Shown: positions 14,220 to 27,417 of the stretch, piece after piece
How the letters are laid out: the number at the start of each line of letters is the position of its first letter
Position numbering within the stretch: position 1 is the stretch's first letter
From: Lingula anatina
Lineage: Eukaryota; Animalia; Brachiopoda
NCBI GenBank assembly: GCA_051362555.1
Contig: CM120647.1
Coordinates: 5,456,001-5,520,000 of the forward strand
Direction of reading: 5' to 3'
DNA length: 64,000 nt
Translations under genes and position numbers: made by a program
The notes under the pieces: generated by a model
Seen by the model: the letters and a program-made list of their open reading frames with translations, nothing else
Databases searched by the model: none
What the model was told of the DNA's origin: nothing

Positions 14220-17200
14220 CTAGAACACTTCAATATACATAGGATAATCACCACCCCCTTTTCCATGTTCATTGTGATCAGGTTCTCCACCAACTTCCGT
14301 GTTGACTCTCACTGTCTCCTCTATTTGTGTTACGATAGAGTTGAAGTCTGGCCGCTCTTCTGGCTCCCACGACCAGCACTTCAGCATGAGCTGGTACCTG
14401 GAATAGAAGAGACGACAGGATATGCTCAAAATTGATACAATCAAGACAACAAGAACGGGATCCAAATAATTTGGACTGCCATTCGAAATTGCTATCCAAC
14501 CCCTAATCCCACTAAATAAAACTAACGTGCTTCTGTAAATTGTGGTGCTTCTTTTACTCCCTCTTCGACAGGGCCTATATATGTAGTTTTGGCTTATGGC
14601 CGGGTGACCCCCTTTTCCGAGATCTGCCTGAGCAGTGTACTACCTGTAGTATGTATACTGTGCGTAACTGAAGGCACAGTCAGGTTCATGTGCAACTAGC
14701 ACTGTTAAGCACCGATACAGGCACATTCAACAGGGAGAAGCAGGCAAAATTTGCATCAAAGAAGAGAATTGAGAAATTCAGACCCTCTTATGATAACATC
14801 AAATATACATGTACTAACACCGTATTAGAAATAACGGCCTTACCAATATCTAAGACTTATGTCAGACCACATATATGTACATACTAATTGTAGATGTATA
14901 TACCCGCAGGCGTGCTGTTAGTCAGGACTTACACTTGCTGAGGACAGTAGTCAGGTATGTCCAGTCTTCTCCCAAGTTTTAGGAACTGTAGAACATCCCA
15001 TCCATCCACACCAGGATACGGTACCTTACCGCGGGTGAACAGTTCCCAAAGCAGTACGCCATAGGACCACTGTAGACAACAGAAATATGTATATAATGGT
15101 AACAAAAATATTGAAAACAAGAATGGTTTGACATTTATAGTTTATCTCTCCTAAAATAGCATACAAAACAAATATTATTATAATTTATATGGACGATTGG
15201 AAATTTAAAATAATCCCAAAAGTCGAAACGGCTTTTGCAGGGCGATTATGGGCACCATATTCTGATGCCTCACCCTCAGGGGTTTGCTATTTAAAAGGTG
15301 TGCTTCCCAGAGAAAGAAATAAAAAGAAATAACATAAAACATTGTACATCTAAAACACGAGAAAGTTAGAGGATGCATTCCTTGATAATTATTTGACATC
15401 TCAAAATACATGTTTTATTTTAATTTGTTTTATTTTCTTATTCATATATCAGTCAATCATTTAAAATTTGAAGAAATCTGATTTTTTCGTTCATGGAGAT
15501 TATTGATTTTAAAATTCAATCTGCACTACCGTATAATGAAGGGAAAAGCAGTAAATTCCGAACTAAAACTTAATGTAACCACATGGCCGTACCACATCGG
15601 ATCTAAAAGTGTAAACGTTCCTCTCCATGGACTCCGGTGCCATCCACTTCACCGGCAACTTGGCCTGCTTGTCTCTGGAACTGTAATATTCCTTGGTATA
15701 CACGTCACGAGTCAGTCCAAAATCGGCCACTTTGGCGCGCAGCTGGTCATCTAGCCTGAAAACATAGCAAAGCTGAGTGAGTTTTTTATCACCAATGATT
15801 ACCATACAATTGTCAACTTTCTCTTGCTAACTGACAATGTCTTTACTCTTCTAGATTTGGTTGATCATTTGCTTGGCATATAATACTCACATATACTACC
15901 TAATACTGTGTATTTCAAGTGTGCCTGAGTCCACAATATTAGTTACTGACTTTAAAACACTCAAAGTTTGAAAATCTCAACGGAAAGGCGATCTACTCCC
16001 GTTTTGCCTATGGAAACACCTGTTCCTCAAGAGGAACGCTTATTCCTCTAGAATCTCCCCTCAAAGCAAAAAAAAAAAAGGTATTGTGTAATCTGCCCTT
16101 TATTAAGGTAATCTGTTCTGTTGGGACAGAGAATATAACCCACATGCAGTTCCTAGCAGCTAAATCCCGATGGACAAATTTGTTCTCAGCAAGGTATTCC
16201 ATGCCCCGGGCTACGTCCAAACCAAACTGCAGCAGCTGTAGACCAGTAGGTGCCTAAAATAACATAAAATATTCGTTCTCAATAATATTTTAGAACAATA
16301 CGTCATACCCGGATTCAAATTGCAATGACGTCAGGATCATACAAAAGCTGTCAGTAGCTAGGTCTGAATCTATTTCTCAGCACTGCAATTACAGACGCTT
16401 AACTTAACTTCTTTCATGTTTTCCAGTAAGGTATTATGAGTTTAATAGCATGACCAGTCTGATCTTGAACAATTGTGTCCTTTCTCCAAACTCATTACAG
16501 CATTTCTTACGCACATTCTTAGGATTCTCGATATAAGTTTTGAGATCTCCATTGGCCATGTACGGTAATATAATCATGGGGTTGCCGTCAACTTCGAAGT
16601 ATACCCCGAGTATTGTCAACACGTGATCATGGCGGAATGACGTCATCAGAGCTCCTTCTCTGAGGAATTCATCTAGGTGCTGAATATCTGCGCCCTTTCC
16701 TGCAGGAAATGTGTCGTTGTGTATTGAATGCACAAACCTCGCGCAGAGATAGATTTTTTGCAAATGTTCCGTTGGTATGGGTGTGGGTACTGTCAATATG
16801 TGTTTCAGTATGCATTTATTTAAGCACAATCATCAATAACATTGTGAATATAAGTTTTGGCATAGACATGTTTTCTTATAAAAATAGATAACATATAATT
16901 GACAAAGCATTATTAACAGACATATATTCATTATTCCTATTCATGTATTAAGTGCAAGATAATGATCAAGCACTTTTTAGCATGTACCTTGAAACGTTTT
17001 CACGGCTACTTTTGAAGGGTTGTAATGTTCGCTGTCTTCGTAAACTGCTTCAAATACACAACCGAAGTGCCCTGAAACAAACAAATAAACGTTATTAGTA
17101 TATAAACATGCGTTACTCCCTCTCCAGTATAAGTTTATTCTATTATTGTTTTATAAAATATACTAACCAGACCGTCATGTGTACGTGACTATAGCTTCGA

Positions 17201-25788: not shown

Positions 25789-27417
25789 CGGATGTTTAAA
25801 AAAACTTTAGTTTTAGCTAGCATGCATTAAAAAAATGTCTTTACTCATTCAATACACGCTTTTTTGATGCCTTACCATATATCTGGTCACTTTGGCTACC
25901 TCGGTACATTTCACCATACTCACATTATTAAACAAACGAGAAATTCACCTATTAACTGTTTGCGTAATAAGTAGGAATTCACTACTAATTTGCGCTGTAC
26001 CTTCTTCAGTTGTCCGCCATCAGTTCCTACAAAAGCCACAGTGTAACTGGTGGTGGTTGTGGTGGCTACTACTGTCCATGTGGACAACGATGTTGTCAGA
26101 GCAGGGGTTGATGTCGCCGGGGTGGTTGACACTAGGGGCGTGTTAATACCACCATAGTCATGGGTGCAATAGTTTGACCCGTGGTTATATGACTAGGGAT
26201 ATAAAATTAGTAAATATTAAATGCATGGCGAATGGCAAAAATATATTGTTTACGGACATCCCACTAATACAGTATTCACATCATATCAGATTAATTGTAA
26301 AACTGTGGTCGAAATAAATAAAAAGTAAACCTACGGGTAAAGAAGCACATGCTCGTGAACCTCCTGGAAAATGTGCAGCCTCGGTATTTCCATTTCCACT
26401 GTAACAATGCTCGTATTTATATTTTACTATACTGTTAATACCCTCCATTGAAAATAGACACATAGCAGTATTAGATCCTTTGACAAAGACACCCACTAGT
26501 ACATGAGCATTTCCAAGTTTGGTTATTGATACGGATTTTGCAAGGTTATACGACACGCTAGGATTGGACCCTGTGCAATGCAAAGGCATTTCGAAATACG
26601 AGTAGTAGTCGGCATCATTCTGGCAAATTCGAACTAATCTGGATTCATATTCTGTGCTGCTAATTGTTGTCTTTTGGTTCGTGATGACATAACTATAACC
26701 ATTTAAAGAGAACCCAGAAATGTAATTTACTAGATAAGTACTTCGCACACTGTCAGAGAGGGTTATGTACGTTCCCGTAATGGACAGTGCGTTGTAGTTT
26801 CTCAGTTCGAGCGTTTGAAGAGATCTGCTACAAACAGCTGCCACCTGCTCCCGAAGCATACCACTCTCATCCTGACCAGTATACGTAGAAGCCACATATA
26901 ACACGTCCTGGTAGTTGGGTCCCGGTGCTATAAAGGCCACTGTGGAAGCATCAGGAGAATTGGCGGCAACGTAATTTTCTAAAGGGTCAGAGCCACGATG
27001 CAGAGTAACCTGCGATATATCAGTGACTGGTCGAGACTCACAAGTACCTTGGTACACGCTGCCACAAGATATCAGTTTACCCCTAGACTGGTCTACTACT
27101 AGGATTTTGTTGTAATTGTCTGTGAGCGTCCCCTGTGAGCAGGAAAAAGGAGGTGGACTACAGTATGGACTATCCGTGACTGGTCCAGTCGTTACGTTCT
27201 GTAACAGTTGTAAGTCACCATCAAGTCGATAGAGAACATTAACAGCTCCAACGTATACAGTCCCAGTGGCGTTATCAACCGCCATGTTGTTGAACTCTAC
27301 TGCTGTCTGTCCACTTGGAAAATAACTGACAACTGTGGAGGTGAAGGCTATATCGCAGGGATGGAATACAGCGGAGAGGAACAGAAATGTCGCAAATCCC
27401 GTTGCCGTTTGATGCAT
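14220..27417 (-). CDS. Plexin-ectodomain / Met-like receptor tyrosine kinase (Sema-PSI-TIG-PSI-TIG-PSI-IPTx4-TM-TK), complete copy, 26 coding exons, ~1603 aa
   Basis: Exons read by eye, all GT-AG with matching phases: 26335-27417, 26001-26192, 25572-25694, 25149-25249, 24714-24840, 24134-24278, 23697-23793, 23337-23451, 22972-23103, 22576-22668, 22216-22315, 21538-21698, 21095-21243, 20617-20731, 20027-20175, 19423-19599, 19144-19240, 18637-18930, 17995-18135, 17313-17676, 16988-17071, 16515-16699, 16144-16253, 15593-15755, 14933-15069, 14220-14397 (sum 4812 nt). Sema motifs: [63 protein letters not shown] motifs: [34 protein letters not shown]. IPTs: [57 protein letters not shown]. Kinase: [51 protein letters not shown]. 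Confidence 0.93.

What the first reader, a model, noticed from the sequence alone, without database searches (positions are those of the whole stretch)
14220..27417. Receptor with a complete plexin ectodomain fused to a Met-type tyrosine kinase
Seen: one open 26-exon frame running Sema - PSI - TIG - PSI - TIG - PSI - 4 IPT - TM - kinase, with all catalytic motifs intact and Met-diagnostic segments ([38 protein letters not shown]). Established: vertebrate Met/Ron have one PSI and four IPT, while plexins have three PSI and six IPT but signal through a split RasGAP domain. Inference: this is a plexin-body / Met-kinase chimera, a candidate semaphorin- or HGF-like-ligand-activated RTK and a possible intermediate in the origin of Met from plexins. 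As I recall, Met-like proteins with plexin-like ectodomains have been reported from comparative surveys of invertebrates, so the class may not be wholly new, but I know of no ligand or function for it.
Basis: partly seen in the sequence, partly recalled or inferred. Interest (0 to 1): 0.85.

Follow-up and report, generated by a model that had tools for sequence, protein, structure and literature searches.

The report
Plexin-headed Met kinase receptor family
An intact animal gene joins the outer part of a plexin (a cell-guidance receptor) to a growth-factor-receptor kinase; this receptor type was described in 2019, but here most of the outer part is about 87% identical to an ordinary plexin of the closest known species, likely through repeated sequence exchange, so it likely answers plexin-type signals with a growth-type output.

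Summary
Observation confirmed: a minus-strand gene of 26 exons (27417-14220, all GT-AG) gives a stop-free 1603-aa Sema-PSI-TIG-PSI-TIG-PSI-4 IPT-TM-kinase protein with an intact Met-type kinase. The class is known: Met-LP RTK (PMC6374515), ligand unknown. Exons 2-17 are as close to Lingula's GAP-bearing plexin (87.0%) as to the Met-LP paralogs (87.7-87.8%), while exons 18-19 fall to 60%. The ectodomain groups with B-type plexins; grouping it with mollusc Met-LP ectodomains is rejected (p-AU 2e-42; 4e-4 with the plexin included). Grouping the kinase with mollusc Met-LP kinases is not rejected (0.38). Best reading: a Met-LP whose ectodomain comes from, and keeps being overwritten by, the animal's plexin-B; likely dimerised by semaphorin. 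It is a derived chimera, not a relic intermediate. A tandem copy lies next to it, broken by a transposon. Ligand untested. RNA reads support the splices for the family, not for this copy. The scan's earlier notes held no Met-LP finding.

The parts
14220..27417 (-). Met-LP receptor tyrosine kinase gene, 26 exons, 1603 aa (gene 1)
   Evidence: colinear RefSeq paralog
26335..27417 (-). exon 1: likely signal peptide (aa 1-26, judged by eye) and most of the Sema domain
26341..26580 (-). hypervariable Sema segment, aa 280-359; holds the position aligned to plexin-A2 A396, a semaphorin contact
19144..26192 (-). exons 2-17: end of Sema, PSI1-TIG-PSI2-TIG-PSI3 and the first IPTs; 601/691 aa identical to the Lingula GAP plexin P0068
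20513..20542 (-). relic second copy of the 3' end of exon 14, with its own GT donor, inside intron 14; matches the variant carried by the plexin and some paralogs; also present in gene 2
17995..18930 (-). exons 18-19: membrane-proximal IPTs, only 87/144 aa identical to the plexin (older layer)
18814..18825 (-). predicted furin-type site R-x-K-R (aa 1088-1091), shared with B-type plexins, absent from the A-type plexins and other Met-LPs checked
17313..17676 (-). exon 20: last IPT strand, TM helix (17521-17592), end of plexin homology just after the TM, juxtamembrane segment, start of the kinase
14316..17343 (-). Met-type tyrosine kinase domain (aa 1309-1572): Gly loop, K1343, E1361, HRD, DFG, activation-loop Y1468/Y1469
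14223..14249 (-). C-terminal tail with two tyrosines (Y1596, Y1599), predicted docking site
1..11230 (-). gene 2: tandem paralog, exons 1-15 in the window, runs off the window start; 85-97% DNA identity per exon; its intracellular part is not in the window
6649..9909 (.). 3.26-kb element with terminal inverted repeats and a 3-bp target duplication, inserted in exon 2 of gene 2

Best explanation
This is an intact Met-LP gene: a complete plexin ectodomain and membrane helix joined to a Met-type tyrosine kinase, whose ectodomain likely comes from the animal's own B-type plexin and is likely still being overwritten by exchange with it, and which is predicted to be switched on when a dimeric semaphorin cross-links two receptors. 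SHOWN: reading frame, domain order, intact catalytic residues, Met-type kinase, near-identity of exons 2-17 to a Lingula GAP plexin, the step to 60% at exons 18-19, and a multi-copy family. INFERRED (about 0.75): an old plexin-B ectodomain plus TM was joined to a Met-family kinase just behind the membrane (exons 18-20 keep that age), the gene multiplied, and exons up to 17 have since been homogenised among the plexin and the kinase-bearing copies by gene conversion or unequal recombination. INFERRED (about 0.55): a semaphorin dimer binds two Sema heads, as in plexins; the kinases trans-phosphorylate Y1468/Y1469 and the tail tyrosines recruit SH2 proteins. The same cue class would then give a GAP output through the plexin and a phosphotyrosine output through the Met-LPs. 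The furin-type site would cut the ectodomain as in B plexins. The variable Sema segment (aa 280-359) would tune which ligand each copy binds.
For: Frame and motifs. Kinase: best solved relatives of paralog P0075 are MET 306 bits, RON 295, MER 254, IGF1R 227; it falls inside the Met/Met-LP group, 100/99, against three unrelated tyrosine kinases. Ectodomain: clade with Lingula plexin P0068 at 100 in both models, among B-type plexins (96 under LG+G4; 90-91 under the mixture model, not starred). The GAP domain of P0068 lies outside the plexin-A clade and is closest to Patella plexin-B, 59%. The R-x-K/R-R loop is in 4 of 4 Lingula sequences and 3 of 7 B-type plexins, and in 0 of 4 A-type plexins and 0 of 5 other Met-LPs. 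Step: 601/691 vs 87/144 to the plexin, p=4e-12; no step to paralog P0074, p=0.20, nor between the two plexin records, p=0.47. Paralog P0076 is 87% to gene 1 in exons 13-17 but 72% in 18-19, p=4e-4, so homogenisation is younger than that duplication. Rate control: outgroup path lengths hardly change between segments (tick-aphid 1.03, 1.09, 1.02), while plexin to gene 1 goes 0.15, 0.14, about 0.68. In the window, synonymous divergence of gene 1 vs gene 2 is patchy: dS 0.38, 0.28, 0.09 for exon 1, exons 3-12, exons 13-14; p=5e-4. Starfish show the same tracking: Patiria Met-LP vs Patiria plexin-B 53-93% per 100 aa; mollusc Met-LP vs plexin 18-43%. Mechanism from known plexins: a dimeric semaphorin cross-links two plexins (PMC4308982); plexin-B1 associates with MET and Sema4D triggers MET phosphorylation (PMC10452846).
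Against: No ligand was tested and no Lingula semaphorin was in hand. The Sema segment holding a known semaphorin contact is the least conserved part: 49-57 of 85 identical among five family members, the plexin included; this could mean a different ligand. The plexin's first 276 residues are missing from the records, so most of the head could not be compared. Within exons 2-17 the Met-LPs are never shown to be broken up by the plexin: best trees keep them together, weakly (60/43, 86/76), and 4 of 6 quartet runs tests were not significant. dN/dS stays below 1 in the variable segment (0.38). The RefSeq Lingula models are partly fragments and could include mis-joined or allelic records. Expression of this copy is not shown (7 of 1326 reads at 99% or more).
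Confidence: 0.6

Rival explanations
1. One recent fusion or replacement, then plain duplication: exons 1-17 were copied once from plexin-B onto an older kinase gene and no exchange has happened since.
For: Met-LP ectodomains stay together in each segment tree, though weakly for exons 2-17; 4 of 6 quartet runs tests show no clustering.
Against: P0076 is 72% to other Met-LPs in exons 18-19 but 86-88% in exons 13-17, which needs at least two events. Patchy dS between genes 1 and 2. Relic of the other exon-14 variant in intron 14.
Confidence: 0.2
2. Same origin, but the ligand is not a semaphorin: the expanded, head-variable family binds an HGF-like factor or polymorphic cell-surface or foreign ligands (recognition role).
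For: Hypervariable Sema segment, 40 of 80 positions variable among three copies, p=0.0003; nine kinase-bearing Lingula records on seven contigs; Met itself uses a Sema head for a non-semaphorin ligand.
Against: The plexin is as close to each copy in that segment as the copies are to each other. dN/dS 0.38, no sign of positive selection in the one pair tested. The head is far closer to plexins than to MET: plexin-B1 234 bits, MET 90 bits over Sema-PSI.
Confidence: 0.25
3. A surviving intermediate between plexins and Met.
For: The kinase branches deep and unresolved in the Met group; one clade of all Met-LP kinases is not rejected, p-AU 0.14, so the architecture may be old.
Against: The ectodomain is 87% identical to a Lingula plexin and cannot be an ancient relic. 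Ordinary Met exists in molluscs, annelids, chelicerates, echinoderms and chordates.
Confidence: 0.05
4. Artefact: a plexin ectodomain gene next to a separate kinase gene, or a mis-assembly.
For: No long read, and no read set that clearly comes from this copy.
Against: Exon 20 holds IPT strand, TM and kinase start in one frame; all introns are under 540 bp; an independent full-length RefSeq paralog exists; reads span intron 20 (15 reads) and, indirectly, intron 19.
Confidence: 0.03

Closest known systems
Met-LP RTKs (Met-like with plexin ectodomain; Junqueira Alves et al. 2019, PMC6374515: Capitella, Aplysia, Acanthaster)
   Same: Complete plexin ectodomain, TM and Met-type tyrosine kinase; ligand unknown; several copies, as in starfish.
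   Different: No brachiopod is in that survey's species list. The ectodomain does not group with mollusc Met-LP ectodomains but with a Lingula B-type plexin at 87% identity, with a sharp step at exon 17/18. In the passages and sections I read, the paper proposes two independent kinase acquisitions and does not discuss ectodomain exchange.
Starfish Met-LPs (Patiria P0049 and relatives; Acanthaster Met-LP1-4)
   Same: Ectodomain nested among the species' own B-type plexins and the family expanded (for Acanthaster).
   Different: Only about 32% identical to gene 1; separate plexin-B donors; no R-x-K-R site in that loop.
Lingula anatina plexin P0068/P0350 (XP_013416174.1, XP_013421247.1)
   Same: Ectodomain exons 2-17 at 87%, furin-type site, TM homology to just after the membrane.
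   Different: Intracellular RasGAP/RBD instead of a kinase; exons 18-19 only 60%.
Vertebrate MET/RON
   Same: Kinase type, activation-loop tyrosine pair, tyrosines in the C-tail; Sema head.
   Different: MET has one PSI and four IPT; the plexin-only middle segment is absent from the ordinary Met/Ron proteins fetched. The tail lacks MET's Y-x-N Grb2 motif, and the furin site is membrane-proximal, not in the Sema domain (MET details recalled).

Membership tests
Met-LP RTK | Complete plexin ectodomain (Sema, 3 PSI, 6 IPT/TIG) | tested here: met
   Pfam on exons and on colinear paralog P0354; one unbroken alignment of P0354 aa 36-1214 to plexin-A4
Met-LP RTK | Single TM helix followed by a tyrosine kinase, no RasGAP | tested here: met
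   hydropathy peak at aa 1221-1251; PK_Tyr; no Plexin_cytopl hit in P0354
Met-LP RTK | Kinase of Met type | tested here: met
   MET > RON > MER > IGF1R among solved structures; inside the Met group in trees; no TAM kinase was available as a tree outgroup
Met-LP RTK | One transcript from Sema to kinase | tested here: inconclusive
   short reads of family members span most 3' introns; no long reads; introns 1-8, 11 and 12 were not among the listed joints
Lophotrochozoan (mollusc/annelid) Met-LP lineage | Ectodomain in one clade with mollusc Met-LP ectodomains | tested here: not met
   p-AU 2e-42, and 4e-4 with the Lingula plexin included; Capitella and Aplysia sequences themselves were not in hand
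Lophotrochozoan (mollusc/annelid) Met-LP lineage | Kinase in one clade with mollusc Met-LP kinases | tested here: inconclusive
   not in the best tree, not rejected, p-AU 0.38
Ordinary Met/Ron | Short ectodomain: Sema, one PSI, four IPT | tested here: not met
   extra TIG-PSI-TIG-PSI segment present
Ordinary Met/Ron | Kinase nested in protostome Met | tested here: inconclusive
   rejected with 7 mollusc/annelid Mets (p-AU 0.015), not with all 11 protostome Mets (0.064)
Ordinary Met/Ron | HGF/MSP ligand | not testable with these tools
   needs binding assays
Plexin | Cytoplasmic split RasGAP with RBD | tested here: not met
   plexin homology ends just after the TM
Plexin | Semaphorin binding | not testable with these tools
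   no Lingula semaphorin in hand; the A396-equivalent lies in the hypervariable segment
B-type plexin ectodomain | Groups with B-type plexins; furin-type site | tested here: met
   (support 96 under LG+G4, 90-91 under the mixture model); furin site as B-type mark from PMC10452846; cleavage itself untested

The most novel reading that the evidence does not exclude
Met-LPs are one ancient bilaterian kinase lineage whose ectodomain is repeatedly overwritten by whichever plexin it exchanges with (plexin-B in Lingula and starfish, an A-type plexin in a hemichordate). The published 'two independent origins' would then be an artefact of ectodomain trees. Lingula shows the process in action: a pool of interchangeable semaphorin-receptor heads wired either to a GAP or to a tyrosine kinase.
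Probability: 0.3. Interest if true: 0.75.

Novelty: new variant of a known kind. Interest (0 to 1): 0.52.

Why it matters
Met-LPs have no known ligand or function (PMC6374515). Here a kinase-bearing and a GAP-bearing receptor share most of their ectodomain at about 87%, so the semaphorin-ligand idea can be tested side by side with a built-in control, and one cue may have two opposite outputs. The two-layer identity pattern also warns that ectodomain trees cannot count how often Met-LPs arose, and gives a live example of a receptor's outside being re-templated from a paralog. The architecture itself is not new.

Tried and rejected
No whole genome is held for this window, so the plexin gene's DNA, copy number, a Lingula semaphorin and an ordinary Lingula Met could not be looked up; no ordinary Lingula Met was among the best 120 of 7680 kinase hits, which is no evidence of absence. 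Run search: no RNA holder listed; nine raw-read runs with the same species label were offered and eight were laid. Positive selection in the Sema head: dN/dS 0.17-0.38 in the one pair testable, not supported. Quartet runs tests for mosaicism: 2 of 6 significant, both with P0076 and spanning the exon 17/18 step. Kinase groupings that could not be decided: with mollusc Met-LPs 0.38, with protostome Met 0.064, all Met-LPs 0.14, with starfish Met-LPs 0.14. The primary plexin-semaphorin structure paper was not held; only A396 is cited from papers read. Two other contact positions (D193, F221) are recalled; they fit the same numbering offset but are not used as evidence. The match of kinase intron positions to human MET is recalled and untested. 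No structure or complex was predicted: the full protein exceeds the limit and no ligand was in hand. Searches that found no report of Lingula Met-LPs or of ectodomain exchange: and the Lingula genome paper's text and supplement; subscription papers are not covered.
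Full report
1. Observation. The gene lies on the minus strand. I located 26 exons by eye in three-frame translations and joined them in a script: ATG 27417 to TAG 14220, every intron GT-AG and 142-535 bp, 4812 nt, 1603 aa, no internal stop. Pfam on 18 single exon frames found Sema, PSI, PSI_PlexinA-B, TIG_2 (weak), TIG and PK_Tyr in the expected order; four gave no hit and two only unrelated weak hits. 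Catalytic elements are intact: Gly loop 1317-1322, K1343, E1361, HRD 1436, DFG 1456, Y1468/Y1469; one TM helix near 1226-1249. An independent RefSeq model, P0354 (Lingula anatina XP_013393885.1), is colinear at 1396 of 1600 residues and has the full plexin-plus-kinase domain list. Exon 20 carries the last IPT strand, the TM and the start of the kinase in one frame.

2. RNA. No run was listed as a holder; nine raw-read runs with the same species label were offered and eight were laid. At 95% likeness 236 reads lay on the gene; at 88%, 1090 reads lay on its 3' half. Only 7 of these 1326 were 99% or more alike, so they speak for the family and not for this copy. Joints at the modelled positions: intron 9 (10 reads) and 18 (9); intron 17 (24), 20 (15), 21 (37), 22 (18), 23 (27), 24 (24), 25 (23), which showed 15 of 31 joints. 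Introns 10 and 19 appear with a few diverged letters between the sides; introns 13, 15 and 16 as shifted joints; introns 1-8, 11 and 12 were not listed. In run X2 depth on exons 15-16 (bins 14.8, 14.5) is several times that on exon 18 and the kinase exons (0.7-4.3), as expected if kinase-less plexin transcripts fit those exons at 88% or more (inference).

3. Known class. PMC6374515 (abstract, passages, Discussion, Methods and part 1 of 2 of Table S1 read; the supplementary PDF with the gene-duplication figures and three zip files were not seen) named this architecture Met-LP in Capitella, Aplysia and Acanthaster. It inferred two independent origins from a Sema+PSI tree, noted a plexin-B next to a Met-LP in starfish, and suggested semaphorins as possible ligands. 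A 2022 review repeats this (PMC10084454, passages). No brachiopod is in the part of the species list I read.

4. Relatives. The closest proteins are all from Lingula anatina: nine kinase-bearing records on seven contigs (some may be alleles or fragments), an ectodomain-only record P0001, and a true GAP plexin, P0068/P0352, with a second record P0350/P0351 on another contig. None is identical to gene 1 (84-90% for the longer ones). Of 335 proteins fetched by then, 26 had both the plexin-only middle segment and a kinase: Lingula, starfish, a hemichordate (Glandiceps), molluscs (Argonauta, Mactra, Ostrea, Sinanodonta, Pinctada, Plakobranchus, Mya), a tardigrade and unnamed ones.

5. Kinase. Among solved structures the paralog P0075 scores MET 306 bits, RON 295, MER 254, TYRO3 245, IGF1R 227. 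A quick tree of 61 rows and a careful mixture-model tree of 36 rows (redundant vertebrates, long outgroups and two mollusc Met-LPs left out; no TAM kinase available) put the Lingula kinases in the Met group as their own clade with unresolved position. AU tests: with mollusc-type Met-LP kinases 0.38; with 11 protostome Mets 0.064; with 7 mollusc/annelid Mets 0.015; all Met-LP kinases together 0.14; with starfish Met-LPs 0.14. So the kinase does not decide between a fresh fusion and an old Met-LP.

6. Ectodomain. In trees of aa 277-1215 (36 rows, LG+G4; 21 rows, mixture model) the Lingula Met-LPs join the Lingula plexin at 100, among B-type plexins (96; 90-91 unstarred). Mollusc Met-LP ectodomains form a separate clade outside that group. 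Patiria Met-LPs join Patiria plexin-B, and the Glandiceps Met-LP joins Patiria plexin-A. Holding Lingula and mollusc Met-LP ectodomains together is rejected (p-AU 2e-42; 4e-4 with the plexin included, quick tree without mixture). The GAP domain of P0068 is outside the plexin-A clade. An R-x-K/R-R site in the fifth IPT is shared with Patella, Gigantopelta and aphid B-type plexins, absent from four other B-type and all four A-type plexins checked; a furin site is a B-type mark in vertebrates (PMC10452846, passages).

7. Two layers. Gene 1 vs the plexin: 601/691 (87.0%) in exons 2-17, 87/144 (60.4%) in exons 18-19, p=4e-12. Gene 1 vs paralog P0074: 87.8% and 91.7%, p=0.20. Homology to the plexin ends a few residues behind the TM, inside exon 20. 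Segment trees: exons 2-12 and 13-17 are near-stars with the plexin at path 0.15 and 0.14 from gene 1; in exons 18-20 the plexin is at about 0.68, while outgroup pairs keep their distances. P0076 is 87% to gene 1 in exons 13-17 and 72% in 18-19 (p=4e-4), so the similarity of the upstream exons is younger than that duplication. In the window, gene 1 and gene 2 differ unevenly at synonymous sites (dS 0.38, 0.28, 0.09; p=5e-4); introns 5 and 8-14 align at 77-94% while introns 1-4, 6 and 7 mostly do not. Intron 14 of both genes holds a relic of the other exon-14 variant. Against: the Met-LPs are not shown to be split by the plexin in any segment tree, 4 of 6 quartet runs tests were not significant, and the plexin comparison is at protein level only. 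Starfish show similar tracking (53-93% per 100 aa); molluscs do not (18-43%).

8. How it likely works. In plexins a dimeric semaphorin cross-links two receptors, and that is the trigger (PMC4308982, passages). With a kinase inside, the same cross-link would drive trans-phosphorylation of Y1468/Y1469 and docking at the tail tyrosines (inference from RTK biology). Vertebrates reach a like result with two proteins: plexin-B1 associates with MET and Sema4D induces MET phosphorylation. The head is far more plexin-like than MET-like (plexin-B1 234 bits, MET 90). The caution is aa 280-359: 40 of 80 positions vary among three copies (p=0.0003), and all five members, plexin included, are only 49-57 of 85 identical there. 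By my count on the alignment this segment holds the position of plexin-A2 A396, a proven semaphorin contact (passages). Ligand preference may differ among copies; dN/dS there is 0.38.

9. Verdict. The class is known; the 'intermediate' reading is not supported. New in what I could search (PMC7535936 and PMC8662651 passages, held nothing on it): a brachiopod-type Met-LP family with a plexin-B-derived ectodomain of separate origin from the mollusc Met-LPs, with signs of continued exchange with the plexin. Interest 0.52; new variant of a known kind.

Noticed in passing
window 1-11230 (-): Tandem paralog (gene 2). Exons 1 and 3-14 have no stops and keep canonical splice sites, but exon 2 is split by an insertion, so it is likely disabled; its intracellular part lies beyond the window.
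   Followed up: partly
window 6649-9909: 3.26-kb non-coding element with terminal inverted repeats and a 3-bp target duplication; internally two ~1.1-kb direct copies (93% alike) and a nested inverted-repeat piece at 8168-8838. The end structure recalls PIF/Harbinger elements (recalled, untested).
   Followed up: partly
window 21685-22041 and 1612-1968: Intron 11 of both genes holds a tandem ~180-bp duplication that includes sequence around the exon 12 acceptor.
   Followed up: no
window 3490-3647: Gene 2 has a 78-bp tandem duplication at the start of exon 8.
   Followed up: no
window 46752-55800 (-): Two long frames (733 and 777 aa) with Peptidase_C98 hits, a USPL1-like SUMO isopeptidase gene.
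   Followed up: no
window 58869-59531 (+): Frame with a RITA (RBPJ-interacting, tubulin-associated) hit, E 7e-14.
   Followed up: no
window 36060-36836 (+): 258-aa hydrophobic, multi-membrane-looking frame with no Pfam hit at E 0.01.
   Followed up: no
window 60685-62533 (-): Frames with CCHC zinc-knuckle-like stretches seen by eye, no Pfam hit; possibly a decayed mobile element.
   Followed up: no
protein P0044 (Paramacrobiotus metropolitanus): Plexin-A-type ectodomain and TM followed by a partial kinase (C-lobe only) closest to PDGFR/KIT/VEGFR/FGFR, not Met; a different plexin-kinase fusion or a mis-joined gene model.
   Followed up: partly
proteins P0094, P0095, P0097, P0195 and others: Ordinary Met in spiders, ticks, horseshoe crab and a millipede, although PMC6374515 found no Met in Ecdysozoa.
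   Followed up: partly
protein P0207 (Glandiceps talaboti): Hemichordate Met-LP whose ectodomain groups with starfish plexin-A (99-100): another plexin donor.
   Followed up: partly
proteins P0271/P0042, P0035/P0100, P0021/P0153/P0224, P0002/P0147: By locus tags and shared contig lengths, plexins, Met and Met-LP lie close together or on one chromosome in several molluscs; such linkage could favour exchange.
   Followed up: no
protein P0168 (Branchiostoma belcheri): Integrin alpha and beta domains fused to a Met-type kinase; real chimera or mis-joined model.
   Followed up: partly
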